In this document: positions 4,881 through 33,148 of the stretch, piece after piece
How the letters are laid out: each line of letters starts with the position of its first letter
Numbering within the stretch: position 1 is the first letter of the stretch
Source: a virus
Lineage: Duplodnaviria > Caudoviricetes
Virus record (IMG/VR): IMGVR_UViG_3300025138_000180
Location: 1 to 33,148 of that record
DNA: 33,148 nucleotides
Reading direction: 5' to 3' (one strand)
The notes under the pieces: model-generated
Seen by the model: the letters and a program-made list of their open reading frames with translations, nothing else
The model's database searches: none
What the model was told of the DNA's origin: nothing
Program-made: the position numbers and the translations under genes

Positions 4881-5819
4881 ATGCCAATTTATGTTAAAGA
4901 TGGTGGTACTTTTCGTGAGATAAGCTCTAGTGCTGGCTCACAACTTTATGTGAGAGATGCTACTTCATTTACAAACAAAACAATTGTTAATACTTATATA
5001 AAAGACGGTGGTGTATGGAGAACAGTCTTTACTTTATTTGATACACCTACAAGTTTTACAGAAGCAGGTTCAGGTACAACAAATTTTGCTGTTCCTGCCA
5101 ATGCTAACGCTATTCACATACAGCAAGCAGTTGGTGGTGGAGGAGGATCTATGAATGGTCTTGGTTATGATAAAGGTCCTGACGGTGAACAAGGAGGACG
5201 TGGCGGAGGATCAGGAGGTTATATTTCTGATAAAGTATTTACAGTTACAGGAGGAGAAACTCTTACAGCAATTGTAGGAACAGGAGGAGCTAATGGTGCA
5301 AATTCTGGTTTTAATTACACCGGTGCAGCCAACCCAGGAACAGTAACAAGTTTAAGTGGATCAAGTACTAATGCAATATTTTCTTTAGCAGGAGGTGGAG
5401 GATCCTCATTTTCAGGAGGAGGTGTTCAAGGACCTACAGCTATTCAAACTTCTGGATCAGCAGGAACTGCTACAATAGGAACTTCATTATCTACAGGTAC
5501 TACAGTAGATGGTGATAACATTACAAGTTTTAATACCGGCCGTGCAGGAAGTTTTAACTCTGGAGGTAATGGTGCGGAAGGATTACCTTCAGGCGGACCT
5601 AGTAAACAGCCTTTATGTAATGGGGATAACTGTAATATTGCAGGCGCTGCGGGAGGTAACTCTTATAACGGAAATGTAGCTGGTGGAGCTGGTGGAGGCA
5701 GTGGTAGCACGGGAGGTGTAGGAAATTTTGGTTCTGGTGCTGGCGGTGGAGGAAAAGAAGCTGCTGGTAATACTGGTGGTGCTGGTGAAATGTTTTATAG
5801 ATTTTTGAGGATTGCATAA
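4881..5819 (+). CDS. Glycine-rich tail-fibre/tip protein
   Basis: N-terminal YVKDGG.. / YIKDGGVWR motifs; GGGGGS...GGGSGGY...VTGGETLT..VG.GG glycine-rich domain. Confidence 0.7.
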   Translation: MPIYVKDGGTFREISSSAGSQLYVRDATSFTNKTIVNTYIKDGGVWRTVFTLFDTPTSFTEAGSGTTNFAVPANANAIHIQQAVGGGGGSMNGLGYDKGPDGEQGGRGGGSGGYISDKVFTVTGGETLTAIVGTGGANGANSGFNYTGAANPGTVTSLSGSSTNAIFSLAGGGGSSFSGGGVQGPTAIQTSGSAGTATIGTSLSTGTTVDGDNITSFNTGRAGSFNSGGNGAEGLPSGGPSKQPLCNGDNCNIAGAAGGNSYNGNVAGGAGGGSGSTGGVGNFGSGAGGGGKEAAGNTGGAGEMFYRFLRIA

Positions 5820-26963: not shown

Positions 26964-27272
26964 TTATATTAAGATATTAAATTCTATCGGGAAGTACTTA
27001 CTTAACTGTCTGTCCCACTTCAGAACTTTATATCGTCCGTTATTGTATCGGCTGGCAATTGCACAACACGCTCCTATTATACTAGGGTCACCTACCAATA
27101 GCAAGAAATCATCATTACAAAAATTTTTTAAAATTTTATTAGCTGCAAAAACAACAGGTCCTGGTGATAATGCAATTTGTTCATGATAAGGCACTACACC
27201 TTTTAACTCTCCATATTTTTTAGCAGAACTATAATCTCTACGAGGAACTTTCTGTATAATAAAAACCGTCAT
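26964..27272 (-). CDS. Conserved phage hypothetical protein
   Basis: 102 aa; A.KYGEL, D.LLLVGDP, LKWDR...Y; first gene of the replication operon. Confidence 0.75.
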   Translation of the reverse strand: MTVFIIQKVPRRDYSSAKKYGELKGVVPYHEQIALSPGPVVFAANKILKNFCNDDFLLLVGDPSIIGACCAIASRYNNGRYKVLKWDRQLSKYFPIEFNILI

Positions 27273-27374
27273 TATTTCTTTCCGTCTCTCCTTCTAAAGT
27301 CGGAGGGAGTTTTTAGGCTCCCTCGCATTCCTTTATTTGCCTATTGTAAAAAGGAGAAACTTTTTACACCTTAT

Positions 27375-27424: not shown

Positions 27425-28885
27425 ATGGATTTAAATTATAAATTTAAAACTAAGCCTTTCGAACATCAATTGAAAGCGCTTGGATGCTCCTGGAACAAGG
27501 AAAGCTTTGCTTATTTTATGGAGATGGGCACCGGTAAATCTAAGGTGCTGATTGATAACATTGCCATGTTATATGACAATGGATCTATAAACGGGGCACT
27601 GATTGTTGCTCCTAAAGGCGTCTATACAAACTGGAAGAATGAACAAATACAAAGACATATGCCAGATCATGTCATGTATAAAATTGTGGTGTGGAATCCT
27701 AATCCAACAAAGAAAGAAAAGGAAGAACTAAATTTCTTGTTTGAAGAAAAAGATTGCTTGACAATATTTCTGATGAACATCGAAGCTTTCAGTACAAAGA
27801 AAGGCCAAGACATTGCTACAAAGTTTTTACTTGGTCATCGATCTTTATTCGCTATCGATGAGTCCACAACTATTAAGACACCAACAGCTGCTAGAACAAA
27901 GTCTGTTGTTAAATTAAGTAAGATGGCACAGTACCGTAGAATTCTTACAGGATCTCCTGTTACTAAAAGTCCCCTCGATCTTTATTCACAAGCTGAGTTT
28001 CTCGATCCGGCGTTCCTCGACCAACCATCGTTCTGGACGTTTAAGTCCCGTTACTGTGTAATGGTAAAAAGACGTATCAGTGGCTCACACCAATTTAATA
28101 TGATTGTTAGTTATAAAAATTTAGATGAGCTGACAAAATTAATTGATACATTTTCCTACCGGGTACTCAAAGATGAATGTCTTGATCTCCCGGATAAAAT
28201 TTACATGACACGAGAGGTTGAGCTGAGTGCAAAACAAATAGATGCTTATCATCAACTAAAAGAATACGCTGTTGCTGAACTTAAAGAAGGTTCGATGACG
28301 ACGTTTTCTGCATTGACACAGCTGATGAGACTTCATCAAGTTACCTGTGGATTTATGACTACCGATGACGGTAGGCTCGTTGATTTACATGATGCGAAAG
28401 GTAAGATACCTAGACTGGAAACGTTATTAGATATTTTAGATGAGGTAGATGGTAAAGTAATTATCTGGGCTAACTACAGACATAACATAAAACATTTAAC
28501 TACTGCTCTTCGTAAAAAGTACGGACCGCAAAGTACCGAGAGTTTTTATGGAGACACCAAGCAGCAAGATAGAGAGGATATTTTATCACGCTTCATGGCC
28601 CCCGACTCCGAGCTCCAGTATCTTGTAGCTAATCCTAGAACAGGTGGTTATGGTTTGAACTTAACTGTATCACATACTATTATTTATTATTCTAACAGTT
28701 ATGATTTAGAAGTTAGAATGCAGTCTGAAGATCGTATACATAGGATTGGTCAGACATCAAAAGCAACATACATAGATCTTGTTGCAAGAAAAACTATTGA
28801 TGAGAACATCATAAAAGCCCTGAAAACCAAGATAAATCTAGCATCAACAATTTTAGGTGAAGATTTAAAAGAATGGTTGCAATAA
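27425..28885 (+). CDS. SNF2-family (SF2) helicase/ATPase
   Basis: P.EHQ, MEMGTGKS, IDEST.IK, ILTGSP, GGYGLNL, QSEDRIHRIGQ. Confidence 0.92.
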   Translation: MDLNYKFKTKPFEHQLKALGCSWNKESFAYFMEMGTGKSKVLIDNIAMLYDNGSINGALIVAPKGVYTNWKNEQIQRHMPDHVMYKIVVWNPNPTKKEKEELNFLFEEKDCLTIFLMNIEAFSTKKGQDIATKFLLGHRSLFAIDESTTIKTPTAARTKSVVKLSKMAQYRRILTGSPVTKSPLDLYSQAEFLDPAFLDQPSFWTFKSRYCVMVKRRISGSHQFNMIVSYKNLDELTKLIDTFSYRVLKDECLDLPDKIYMTREVELSAKQIDAYHQLKEYAVAELKEGSMTTFSALTQLMRLHQVTCGFMTTDDGRLVDLHDAKGKIPRLETLLDILDEVDGKVIIWANYRHNIKHLTTALRKKYGPQSTESFYGDTKQQDREDILSRFMAPDSELQYLVANPRTGGYGLNLTVSHTIIYYSNSYDLEVRMQSEDRIHRIGQTSKATYIDLVARKTIDENIIKALKTKINLASTILGEDLKEWLQ

Positions 28886-28905
28886 GTTATAAGATATTAT
28901 ATAAG
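28877..28905 (+). promoter_or_regulatory. Sigma70-like promoter upstream of the structured RNA and small-ORF cluster
   Basis: TTGCAA (28877-28882), 17 nt, TATAAG (28900-28905). Confidence 0.65.
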
Positions 28906-28915
28906 GTATTTAAAT

Positions 28916-29096
28916 GAGGATGGTGCAACATTCTCGGAGTATGGCTGAACAACTGTAACAAGGTAGTAAGGCACGGTTCTCGCAAGGTATGGTCGCATGA
29001 CTGAGGGTGTGAGAGTTGGTACTGAAGTACTAGTTAAGCTAGAACAGTTTGACTTGTCGGGAAAAGGTTGGGGGTAGTCAAAGAACCCCCCTACTC
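28916..29096 (+). ncRNA. Candidate ~180-nt multi-stem pseudoknotted ncRNA (manA/GOLLD-3'-like by recollection)
   Basis: Non-coding and GC-richer than its flanks; GAGGATG/CATTCTC, closing GAGTA/TACTC, TCTCGCA/TGTGAGA, GTAC-TGAA-GTAC, and GGGGGT/ACCCCC whose loop AGTCAAA is complementary to TTTGACT. Confidence 0.7.
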
Positions 29097-29116
29097 ACAA
29101 AGAAAGAAAGGTTTGT

Positions 29117-29260
29117 ATGGAACGCACAGAAATAAAAGTTGGTAAGATAACTATTATCATAACAGATAAAGATGCTCTTATGGTGGAATTAAATGGTTAC
29201 ACTTATTTCATTGATGATAGCACCGATGAAAATTTAATGAATAGATATAAGGATAAGTAA
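29117..29260 (+). CDS. 47-aa hypothetical protein
   Basis: MERTEIKVGKITIIITDKDALMVELNGYTYFIDDSTDENLMNRYKDK; GAAAGG RBS; TAATG-coupled to the next ORF. Confidence 0.65.
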   Translation: MERTEIKVGKITIIITDKDALMVELNGYTYFIDDSTDENLMNRYKDK

Positions 29261-30394: not shown

Positions 30395-30571
30395 TTGACT
30401 ATATATTATAACACTATTAAGAAAGATAAAGTGATTACATATGTCTACAGTGATGTTGATGATGTGTGGTTCGTGAACAAAATAACAAAAAGGAGAGATT
30501 TATGGACGTGGAAAACATGTGGAGCGATGAAGATAATGCGAGACTTATTGAATTGGATCAAAAAGGTGTAA
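30395..30571 (+). CDS. Possible 58-aa hypothetical protein
   Basis: TTG start 8 nt after GAGGAG; MTIYYNTIKKDKVITYVYSDVDDVWFVNK...; overlaps the next gene by 70 nt. Confidence 0.45.
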   Translation: MTIYYNTIKKDKVITYVYSDVDDVWFVNKITKRRDLWTWKTCGAMKIMRDLLNWIKKV

Positions 30572-30822
30572 GGGTAAGAGATATTGCCATACGAATGAAC
30601 AAAAGTAAGAATTCGGTTGCGGGTAGATTACATAGGATAAGGATTAAAAATGGTCATACACCAAAATTTAAACACAGGCAGATAAAGAGATATATGCCTG
30701 CATCAGAGAAGATTGGTCAACGTAGATGTAATTTATGTTATCAAAAATTTGATATATCTTCTGTGTTACAGAGATTCTGCGAACCTTGTAAAAGAACTGA
30801 TAATTACAAGTTTGGAGGGTAA
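30502..30822 (+). CDS. GcrA-like helix-turn-helix regulator with C-terminal CxxC..CxxC
   Basis: WSDEDNARLIEL..KG....IA..M..SKNSVAGRLHRI resembles the GcrA N-terminal domain; start moved to ATG 30502 (AGGAG RBS). Confidence 0.7.
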   Translation: MDVENMWSDEDNARLIELDQKGVRVRDIAIRMNKSKNSVAGRLHRIRIKNGHTPKFKHRQIKRYMPASEKIGQRRCNLCYQKFDISSVLQRFCEPCKRTDNYKFGG

Positions 30823-30824
30823 TC

Positions 30825-30853
30825 TTGCGACAAATGTAAATTTGTTGTATAAT
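30825..30853 (+). promoter_or_regulatory. Sigma70-like promoter with a dyad in the spacer
   Basis: TTGCGA-17 nt-TATAAT; ACAAAT-GTAA-ATTTGT inverted repeat at 30830-30845. Confidence 0.7.
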
Positions 30854-30903
30854 AACTTCCTGGATAAGTAGGTGAAGTCCGAAATTCCAGGAAGGATAAT
30901 GAA

Positions 30904-32810: not shown

Positions 32811-32823
32811 TTATTTTCTATTC

Positions 32824-33025
32824 CTTATACTAAGTTACCGGCCGGCCGGACCGTGTTTTCGCCTCTGTCAAGTGTTAAATACTCTAGGGTTTCTGCGGTT
32901 TTTTTATGAAGCATGAATCCTGATGCCCGCAGCTGCAGCCAGGAGCTGCTGGGGAATGGTTGAAATACACTAGGTCTTACGCCCTTTTCTATATCTATCT
33001 CTTATACCAATTGACGGCCGGCCGG
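32824..33025. repeat. GC-rich non-coding region with duplicated motifs
   Basis: CTTATAC-N7/8-CGGCCGGCCGG at 32824-32849 and 33001-33025; AAATAC(T/A)CTAGG twice (about 32877 and 32963); CAGCTG-like motifs. Confidence 0.65.
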
Positions 33026-33062
33026 GGCAGCTGAGTTGTTCATACCATGCGGGAACTTATCC

Positions 33063-33112
33063 AAAAGATTTAAATCTTTTTGCTTTACATTATAATAAGT
33101 TATAACTATATA
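33063..33112 (+). promoter_or_regulatory. Sigma70-like promoter preceded by a perfect 18-bp palindrome
   Basis: AAAAGATTTAAATCTTTT (33063-33080), then TTTACA (33084-33089)-17 nt-TATATA (33107-33112). Confidence 0.6.
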
Positions 33113-33148
33113 TGTAGTGGGGGTACCGAATCCGTTTAGAAGTTTTGC

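What the first reader, a model, noticed from the sequence alone, without database searches (positions are those of the whole stretch)
28877..29100. Promoter-driven ~180-nt pseudoknotted non-coding RNA at the head of the small-ORF cluster
Seen: after a good promoter, a 230-nt gap folds into a 5' hairpin (28916-28935), a closing stem GAGTA/TACTC (28937-28941 with 29092-29096), CTGT/ACAG, GGCA/TGTC, a long arm TCTCGCA/TGTGAGA enclosing GGTC-GCAT-GACT, two small hairpins (29019-29041), and a 3' hairpin GGGGGT/ACCCCC whose loop AGTCAAA (29076-29082) pairs perfectly with TTTGACT (29048-29054). Multiple G-U pairs favour the plus strand. By recollection the GGCTGAA..GTAAGGCA..3' pseudoknot layout resembles the manA motif or GOLLD 3' domain, phage-associated RNAs of unknown function. 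Inference: a compact, possibly new member of that class in a small alphaproteobacterial phage, with no tRNA neighbours. This is the best candidate for an undescribed system here.
Basis: partly seen in the sequence, partly recalled or inferred. Interest (0 to 1): 0.85.

Follow-up and report, generated by a model that had tools for sequence, protein, structure and literature searches.

The report
Single-arm manA-type RNA of marine phages
The flagged gap holds a real, conserved, roughly 185-base folded non-coding RNA: a slimmed-down variant of the known manA RNA (whose other forms build RNA-only cages in the test tube), which marine phages related to SAR11 phages carry as an optional insert right behind a predicted early promoter and which is predicted to pair with copies of itself.

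Summary
The RNA is real; the drawn fold is half right. 28916-29101 (+) matches Rfam manA full length, below the family threshold (32.7 vs 55.2 bits, E 5e-7). In 86 close relatives 98% of cells pair and 22 of 51 pairs change on both sides. CUGU/ACAG and both small hairpins fail. Unlike typical manA, the three-hairpin junction is one arm, so the L5-L7 contact used by both described manA pentamers is absent. Instead the arm's tetraloop covaries with its own internal loop (102 of 102), probably between molecules, and loop 1 stays palindromic. The RNA is an optional cassette at the predicted start site: 6 of 17 sister loci keep promoter and next gene without it, and some copies lead no gene, which argues against a riboswitch. 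A sister form lies in cultured Pelagibacter phage HTVC008M. Expression, assembly and function are untested. The scan has reported other manA variants on other DNA before. Verdict: new variant of a known kind.

The parts
28877..28905 (+). Predicted host sigma-70-type early promoter: -35 TTGCAA (28877-82, overlapping the helicase stop), 17-nt spacer, -10 TATAAG (28900-05). Belongs to the operon; kept in sister phages that lack the RNA.
   Evidence: Sequence; fixed-distance -35 in 59 of 77 upstream regions; retained without RNA in L128, L130-L134. Not shown by experiment.
28912..29098 (+). Single-arm manA-type non-coding RNA, about 185 nt; predicted start about 28912
   Evidence: Rfam manA 28916-29101, 32.7 bits, E 5.4e-7; covariation; boundaries set by precise presence/absence
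28916..28935 (+). P1 hairpin; loop L1 28923-28 (GUGCAA) with self-complementary UGCA core, predicted two-fold kissing loop
   Evidence: 6 of 7 pairs with double changes; loop centre GC in 112 and CG in 22 of 135 RNAs, never GG or CC
28937..29096 (+). P2 closing helix 28937-41 with 29092-96
   Evidence: Kept in 86 of 86; different complementary sequences in the sister clade
28942..28972 (+). manA core: UGGCUGAACAA, P3 (28944-45/28971-72; 28953-55/28964-66), loop L3 28956-63, UAAG
   Evidence: Aligns to the Rfam consensus; P3b covaries across clades. 28937-59 was the search seed, so its invariance in clade A is by construction
28958..29057 (+).
   Evidence: 5 of 5 pairs in all 7 haplotypes among 122 distinct RNAs, 0 of 24 cross-clade combinations reach 5; an eighth compensated form in L362-L367
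28974..29018 (+). Single P4/P6 arm in place of the three-hairpin junction of typical manA; P6 28991-94/28999-29002 capped by tetraloop L6 28995-98
   Evidence: GUGGU..ACCA (L5-L7) in 0 of 102 single-arm RNAs against 98 of 111 in the TGACTGAA set
28989..28998 (+). Loop-receptor contact: 28990 with 28997 and 28989 with 28998, on the same 4-bp hairpin; inferred to form between molecules
   Evidence: Watson-Crick in 102 of 102 and 101 of 102 parsed arms (U-A 79, C-G 15, G-C 8; shuffle mean 64, max 75); second pair changes to G-C in 7 sister-clade RNAs
29021..29068 (+). P8 with an AGUA (29026-29) / GAA (29061-63) internal loop, read from recall as a bulged-G (loop E) motif, flanked by a covarying pair 29030/29060
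   Evidence: C-G 68, G-C 18 of 86; flanking 3-bp helix covaries in the sister clade. Motif name recalled, not tested
29049..29081 (+).
   Evidence: Invariant in clade A; compensated in the sister clade, L274 and L362-L367
29070..29091 (+). P9 hairpin (5 bp) with loop L9 29075-86
27425..28885 (+). Upstream neighbour: SNF2-type helicase gene (context, not part of the RNA)
29117..29260 (+). First small ORF after the RNA (47 aa, no family); its ribosome-binding site lies outside the fold; interchangeable among relatives

Best explanation
It is a conserved, non-coding RNA of the manA fold, carried as an optional cassette, that is likely transcribed from a host-polymerase early promoter, is predicted to join copies of itself into a closed multimer, and likely acts as a free RNA particle rather than as a switch for the next gene. 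Shown by comparison: the secondary structure, two long-range pairings onto one strand of P8 (from L3 and L9), the tetraloop/internal-loop pairing in the arm, loss of the L5-L7 hairpins, precise gain or loss at the predicted start site, and copies that lead no gene. Inferred: transcription starts at about 28912 so that P1 caps the 5' end; P2 clamps the 3' end, so the RNA outlasts the mRNA it heads and is left as a discrete piece of about 185 nt; L6 of one molecule pairs with the P6 internal loop of the next (the position of the L6-P6' contact seen by cryo-EM in a Photobacterium manA), L3 and L9 grip P8 within or between molecules, giving a ring; palindromic L1 loops join rings two by two. Guess: the stable particle binds or decoys a host factor early in infection and gives a conditional advantage. 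My odds by step: real structured RNA 0.98, manA homologue 0.93, self-assembly 0.7, action in trans 0.55, decoy role 0.25.
For: Rfam match over all 192 model positions for the window and for 8 of 8 clade members tested (36-44 bits). 98.3% of 4378 cells paired, 22 of 51 pairs with double changes, 0 of 500 shuffles reach it, slid controls 38-45%. Long-range pairings compensated across clades, with the arm contact changing separately in both clades on a tree. Cryo-EM of five manA RNAs shows 8-, 10- and 60-mers built by L5-L7', L8-L9', L3-L8' and L6-P6' contacts (bioRxiv 10.64898/2026.07.01.735769). GACG loops, the commonest L1 of typical manA, are known 2-bp self-kissing loops (PMC7357161). Against a cis switch: 19 different downstream gene families in 81 clade loci; at least three genomic sites among 62 loci; 6 of 17 helicase loci lack exactly the RNA but keep promoter, ribosome-binding site and gene; a new promoter separates it from the next gene in 3 of 118 loci, and no same-strand gene follows in 4 of 5 metagenome copies and in phage 023Pt_psg01.
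Against: No transcript was examined. 115 of 118 clade loci and 73 of 74 sister-clade loci have a same-strand start within 120 nt and no terminator was found after the RNA, exactly what a 5' leader looks like. The score is under Rfam's threshold. The L5-L7' contact common to both described pentamers is missing, so assembly may differ or fail. That the arm contact is intermolecular rests on geometry and analogy, not on a model. The L1 words also contain GCAA and UUCG, common stable-loop words, which could explain them without kissing. A free-register control for the L9 pairing is weak (231 of 696 cross-clade combinations reach 4 pairs). The structure was derived from the alignments on which it was counted. 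Nothing here points to a target.
Confidence: 0.5

Rival explanations
1. It is a cis-acting leader: a compact, nuclease-resistant fold at the very 5' end of an early mRNA that lengthens the life or raises the translation of whatever genes follow; any self-assembly is incidental.
For: Sits between predicted start site and ribosome-binding site, usually about 20 nt before a start codon, with no terminator; sits before the gp32 single-strand-binding gene in 28 of 63 sister-clade loci; a general stabiliser would not care which gene follows.
Against: Copies that lead no gene keep the full fold; a 5' hairpin alone would do this job, so the conserved surface loops and the arm contact are unexplained.
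Confidence: 0.27
2. It is a selfish or nearly neutral mobile RNA cassette that spreads between phage early promoters by recombination or by copying of its transcript, kept folded for its own persistence.
For: Exact gain or loss at the predicted start site; several genomic sites; one sister-clade form occurs both in a T4-like myovirus and in an HTVC023P-type phage.
Against: One copy per record in the two long records searched that hold it; no reverse transcriptase, integrase or target duplication seen in the window; strong compensatory evolution implies selection on the fold.
Confidence: 0.08
3. It is a metabolite-sensing riboswitch, as proposed for manA in 2010.
For: Complex conserved core in a 5' position; Weinberg et al. 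rated manA a probable riboswitch candidate and Rfam types it Cis-reg.
Against: No common theme among 19 downstream families; no terminator or sequestered ribosome-binding site; gene-less copies.
Confidence: 0.06
4. It is a packaging RNA like the phi29 prohead RNA, forming a five-fold ring on the capsid portal.
For: manA builds pentamers; small-terminase gene lies near many copies.
Against: Dispensable in close sister phages, one 92% complete; absent from HTVC023P and HTVC027P; shared by unrelated podo- and myoviruses; early-type promoter.
Confidence: 0.04

Closest known systems
manA RNA motif (Rfam RF01745; Weinberg et al. 2010, PMC2864571)
   Same: P1, closing P2, UGRCUGAAYAA and UAARG core around P3, P8, P9 with GGGUA, L8-L9 pairing, length, marine phage setting, usual 5' position. 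The L3-to-P8 pairing is also present in typical copies (96 of 111). About six of the 36 rows I read of the founding alignment are single-arm by eye, and at least two carry the same tetraloop module.
   Different: Scores 32.7 bits against a threshold of 55.2. One arm instead of hairpins P5-P7, so no L5-L7 pair. The L9 and L3 partners abut on one strand and a local helix competes for it; P8 carries an AGUA/GAA internal loop. Found in phages related to SAR11 phages, not cyanophages or Photobacterium. Behaves as an optional cassette.
manA cages solved by cryo-EM (manA_A0F1 60-mer; manA_pho34_A767, pho_A28C, 67AA decamers; 6FAB octamer/decamer; bioRxiv 10.64898/2026.07.01.735769)
   Same: Has the partners for L3-L8 and an L6-to-P6 contact (as in pho34) and for L8-L9 (as in A0F1). 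Helix numbering matched by me from the Rfam consensus.
   Different: Lacks L5-L7, which both described pentamers use; L6 is not a GNRA loop but base-pairs with its receptor; an L1 contact is not named in the main text.
GOLLD, ROOL, OLE, raiA (large ornate RNAs)
   Same: Phage-associated or bacterial ornate RNAs; GOLLD and ROOL form cages.
   Different: No Rfam match at E up to 10; much shorter; no tRNA neighbours.
MoMuLV GACG kissing loop and HIV-1 DIS palindrome (PMC7357161)
   Same: Self-complementary hairpin loops that dimerise; analogy for L1.
   Different: No homology; kissing of L1 is untested.

Membership tests
manA RNA (RF01745) | Covariance-model score at or above the gathering threshold (55.2 bits) | tested here: not met
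   Window 32.7; 8 of 8 clade members 36.3-44.0; 4 of 7 sister-clade members 24-35, 3 without a match at E 0.1
manA RNA (RF01745) | Full-length match with conserved UGRCUGAAYAA, UAARG and GGGUA..AUCC segments and helices P1, P2, P3, P9 | tested here: met
   Model positions 1-192, E 5.4e-7; helices kept in relatives
manA RNA (RF01745) | L8-L9 pseudoknot/kissing pair | tested here: met
   4-5 bp; invariant in clade A, compensated in other clades; free-register control weak
manA RNA (RF01745) | L3 pairing with P8 | tested here: met
   5 of 5 in 7 of 7 haplotypes; 0 of 24 cross-clade
manA RNA (RF01745) | Three-hairpin junction P5-P7 with complementary L5 and L7 | tested here: not met
   0 of 102 single-arm RNAs against 98 of 111 typical ones; also missing from some founding rows
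manA RNA (RF01745) | Placement 5' of genes for sugar, nucleotide or photosynthetic metabolism (cis-regulatory reading) | tested here: not met
   5' placement usual but downstream genes are mostly unrelated small ORFs or gp32; gene-less copies exist
manA RNA (RF01745) | Self-assembly into closed oligomers | not testable with these tools
   Needs SEC, mass photometry or cryo-EM
GOLLD / ROOL / raiA | Match to the family model | tested here: not met
   No match at gathering score or at E up to 10
Riboswitch | Expression platform (terminator or sequestered ribosome-binding site) and functionally related downstream genes | tested here: not met
Riboswitch | Specific ligand binding | not testable with these tools
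   Needs in-line probing

The most novel reading that the evidence does not exclude
Phages of SAR11-type bacteria carry a minimal cage-forming RNA that has dropped the contact used by all described manA pentamers and assembles by another set (base-paired L6-P6', L3 and L9 on one strand, palindromic L1-L1'), and these RNA-only particles form inside infected cells and do a job there; the copy in cultured phage HTVC008M makes this directly testable.
Probability: 0.25. Interest if true: 0.85.

Novelty: new variant of a known kind. Interest (0 to 1): 0.52.

Why it matters
manA has been a functional orphan since 2010 and was just shown to build RNA-only cages in vitro, with no evidence on what happens in cells. 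This variant adds three things. It gives natural with-and-without pairs of otherwise matching phage loci and gene-less copies, which favour a free RNA over the catalogued 'cis-regulatory' label. It predicts from covariation a different set of assembly contacts, with exact base pairs to break and rescue. And it places a copy in a phage-host pair that is in culture (HTVC008M on Pelagibacter HTCC1062), where it is hidden under a hypothetical ORF and under Rfam's threshold. The family itself is known, so the surprise is moderate.

Tried and rejected
Rfam at gathering score over the whole window: no match. blastn of the RNA against 50,697 GenBank phages: only short chance pieces. Single-sequence folding: not significant. 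Pattern with UGAAUAA: 3 loci, of which one true manA (L120, 59.3 bits) and two coding chance hits. Model R1 was built on a mis-registered structure string and was discarded unused; R2 replaced it. The plain alignment of both clades is off by one column in P8, so cross-clade pairs were counted by anchored parsing; one search had a parsing error and was replaced, which left out 20 of 139 clade-A-range entries (11 cut short or with an N, 9 without the RNA or not of the clade) and 10 of 85 sister-range loci. One search left 22 loci unparsed; 7 distinct RNAs among them were parsed. Cellular genomes: 8 pattern hits among 185,579 species genomes, only 1 of 8 matches the model and it lies on a phage-like contig; 1 of 116 genomes in that record's family, all incomplete. 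HTVC023P, HTVC027P and DSL-LC04 have no copy. Expression was not examined, so transcript size and level stay open. Rejected readings: tRNA/tmRNA, hidden ORF, GOLLD/ROOL fragment, CRISPR repeat (E 8.1). Literature searches listed no paper on a manA-type RNA in pelagiphages; the main text of PMC9599517 has no occurrence of manA, Rfam or noncoding; the largest supplements of PMC10690425 (files 1, 2, 4) could not be searched, so that catalogue may already hold this RNA. A search for support of the recalled T-less -10 element of alphaproteobacterial promoters found nothing useful; I do not lean on it.

Full report
Setting. The window is a 33,148-base virus record, 54% complete, 35% G+C, with family A DNA polymerase, primase, two helicases, structural genes and a cluster of small ORFs ending in a small terminase gene. 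The best named matches for the polymerase and the SNF2 helicase are HTVC023P-type pelagiphages and phage DSL-LC04 at 46-54% identity, so kinship is distant and the host is inferred. A copy of the same RNA clade lies on a phage-like contig in a record titled uncultured Alphaproteobacteria, whose family members are 0.9-1.6 Mb genomes in the rows shown. The flagged gap lies between the helicase stop (28885) and a 47-aa ORF (29117).

The observation. Alone the sequence folds no better than shuffles (z -1.29). An exact 23-base seed found 120 stored stretches in IMG/VR (118 loci); 86 distinct full-length RNAs including the window were aligned. On the structure I settled on, 98.3% of 4378 cells pair, 22 of 51 pairs change on both sides (shuffles 13.7 +- 1.3, 0 of 500 reach it) and slid controls pair 38-45%. 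The structure came from these same sequences and the seed region is invariant by construction, so the wider clades matter more. A pattern that forced a different loop 9 gave 85 loci, 75 of which parse as a sister clade; one more such pattern in metagenomes gave 6 loci, 5 of them a third form.

What held and what did not. P1, P2, the arm, GGUC/GACU and P9 hold. CUGU/ACAG (11 of 86 rows), the hairpin at 29031-41 (39 of 86) and the hairpin at 29019-30 fail; in the last, the 18 rows that break it keep a C-G to G-C swap between 29030 and 29060 instead. That pair flanks an AGUA/GAA internal loop, which I recall as the bulged-G or loop E motif; the flanking helix covaries in the sister clade. A free-register control for it is weak (231 of 696 wrong combinations reach 4 pairs), and a local helix with 29033-37 competes for the same strand.

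Two contacts that look intermolecular. Mutual information picked out 28990 with 28997: an internal-loop base and a base of the tetraloop that caps the same 4-bp hairpin. They are Watson-Crick in 102 of 102 parsed arms (U-A 79, C-G 15, G-C 8; shuffles mean 64, max 75), and the neighbours 28989/28998 in 101 of 102 (22 loci unparsed), with a switch to G-C in 7 sister RNAs. On a tree of 135 RNAs the C-G and G-C forms each arise in both clades (the trait columns were in the tree and the RNAs look mosaic, so counts are rough). With no linker between the two helices this is hard to build within one molecule; that is inference. Second, the loop 1 centre is GC in 112 and CG in 22 of 135 RNAs and never GG or CC, so it stays self-complementary; typical manA has mostly GACG-type loops there, a known 2-bp self-kissing loop (PMC7357161, passages). 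The caveat is that GCAA and UUCG are also common stable-loop words.

Family. Rfam gives manA over all 192 positions at 32.7 bits, E 5.4e-7, under the 55.2 threshold; 8 of 8 clade members score 36-44 and 4 of 7 sister members 24-35. Typical manA pulled by pattern (120 loci of an estimated 1100) has complementary L5 and L7 in 98 of 111 distinct RNAs, L3-P8 in 96 and L8-L9 in 92; single-arm RNAs have L5-L7 in 0 of 102. So core and both long-range pairings are shared, the three-hairpin junction is not. I file it as a manA-type variant, not as a member by Rfam's test. It is not unseen: in the 36 rows I read of the 2010 alignment about six are single-arm by eye and at least two carry the same tetraloop module (PMC2864571 supplement 5, parts 119-120). 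The cryo-EM preprint (10.64898/2026.07.01.735769; whole main text read; supplement closed) reports 8-, 10- and 60-mers from a shared pentamer held by L5-L7' plus L8-L9', or by L6-P6', L5-L7' and L3-L8'. By my numbering this RNA has partners for L6-P6, L3-L8 and L8-L9 but not L5-L7.

Genomic behaviour. A -35-like hexamer lies 30-38 nt before the RNA's first base in 59 of 77 distinct upstream regions (controls 0-12) and near-consensus promoters precede the sister clade, though the window's own site fails the consensus scan. Of 17 loci found through the helicase, 11 carry the RNA and 6 do not; those 6, two lineages, keep the same promoter, ribosome-binding site and gene family with exactly the RNA missing, and none of 4 such contigs searched whole has it elsewhere (92%, 76%, 36%, 23% complete). 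Among 62 loci with long flanks it follows the helicase in 12, the polymerase block in 27, lies back to back with the small terminase gene in 15 and is unplaced in 8. The next gene falls into 19 families in 81 loci (loci not de-duplicated by contig). Most copies do head a gene (115 of 118; 73 of 74), but 3 are cut off from it by a new promoter, and 4 of 5 metagenome copies and the copy in 023Pt_psg01 (MW574966, 10190-10398, minus strand, facing an annotated gene) have no same-strand gene after them. HTVC008M holds a sister-clade copy at 5028-5232, under hypothetical ORF AGE60342 and before gp32; HTVC023P, HTVC027P and DSL-LC04 have none. No cellular chromosome copy was found.

How it most likely works. 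Host polymerase likely starts at about 28912; P1 caps the 5' end and P2 clamps the 3' end, so the folded RNA would outlast the mRNA it heads; L6-P6', L3 and L9 contacts would link copies into a ring and L1 would join rings. Optional presence, free choice of neighbour and gene-less copies favour action in trans; a decoy or scaffold for a host factor is my guess and has no direct support. The main rival, a stabilising 5' leader, fits the usual placement and is not excluded. Riboswitch, packaging RNA and selfish cassette are less likely for the reasons listed. Expression was not examined.

Novelty. Searches listed no paper on such an RNA in pelagiphages; PMC9599517 (passages) does not mention manA or non-coding RNA; the large supplements of PMC10690425 could not be searched. 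Other papers seen: PMC2864571 main text, PMC9964418, PMC7779021, 10.1101/2020.02.04.933952, PMC12197685, PMC12379486 (passages) and PMC11066056 (abstract and outline; not used). This scan has 37 earlier findings that hold the manA search words, 8 of them shown, all other manA-related forms on other DNA; none came up for this genome or for the single-arm pelagiphage wording. Verdict: a new variant of a known kind, interest 0.52.

Noticed in passing
L344:3966-4136 (KC465899 4993-5163): Annotated hypothetical protein AGE60342 of HTVC008M overlaps the sister-clade RNA and is probably a spurious ORF call.
   Followed up: partly
L009, L046, L052, L087, about 70-250 nt after the RNA: A second promoter follows the RNA and drives a conserved two-hairpin leader (GGGCGGUG ... 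CACCGCC) that ends at the next gene's ribosome-binding site; no Rfam match other than manA in L009, L046, L052. Not in the window.
   Followed up: partly
L009 and L087, between the RNA and the next promoter: An extra element closed by a GGGUAGU/ACUACCC stem with a different interior in each locus; possibly another small RNA.
   Followed up: no
L034, L067, L088, directly after the RNA: A long hairpin is inserted between the RNA and the next gene's start.
   Followed up: no
window 30825-30891: A second near-consensus early promoter (TTGCGA-17-TATAAT) followed at once by a 9-bp hairpin before ORF 30904; the same promoter-leader-gene layout with a much smaller leader.
   Followed up: no
window 27288-27324: Overlapping G+C-rich hairpins in the gap between the divergent genes at 27272 and 27425.
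   Followed up: no
window 30466-30822: GcrA-like small regulator (Pfam E 4e-5, just under cutoff), a trait of alphaproteobacterial phages.
   Followed up: no
window 32811-33148: Gene-free end of the record with two GGCCGGCCGG palindromic runs and CAGCTG palindromes in an otherwise A+T-rich genome; possibly a packaging or replication signal.
   Followed up: no
L120:1473-1653; L305:276-453; L199:1483-1652: Other short manA forms: L120 (59.3 bits, two hairpins, no P7) and L305 (59.5) pass the Rfam threshold, L199 scores 50.1; they bridge typical and single-arm types.
   Followed up: partly
L232, L238, L274: Further single-arm clades with the UGACUGAA core; they match my model at 51-73 bits.
   Followed up: partly
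L362-L367, after the RNA: The RNA runs into G/T-rich repetitive DNA that looks like the reverse strand of a low-complexity gene.
   Followed up: no
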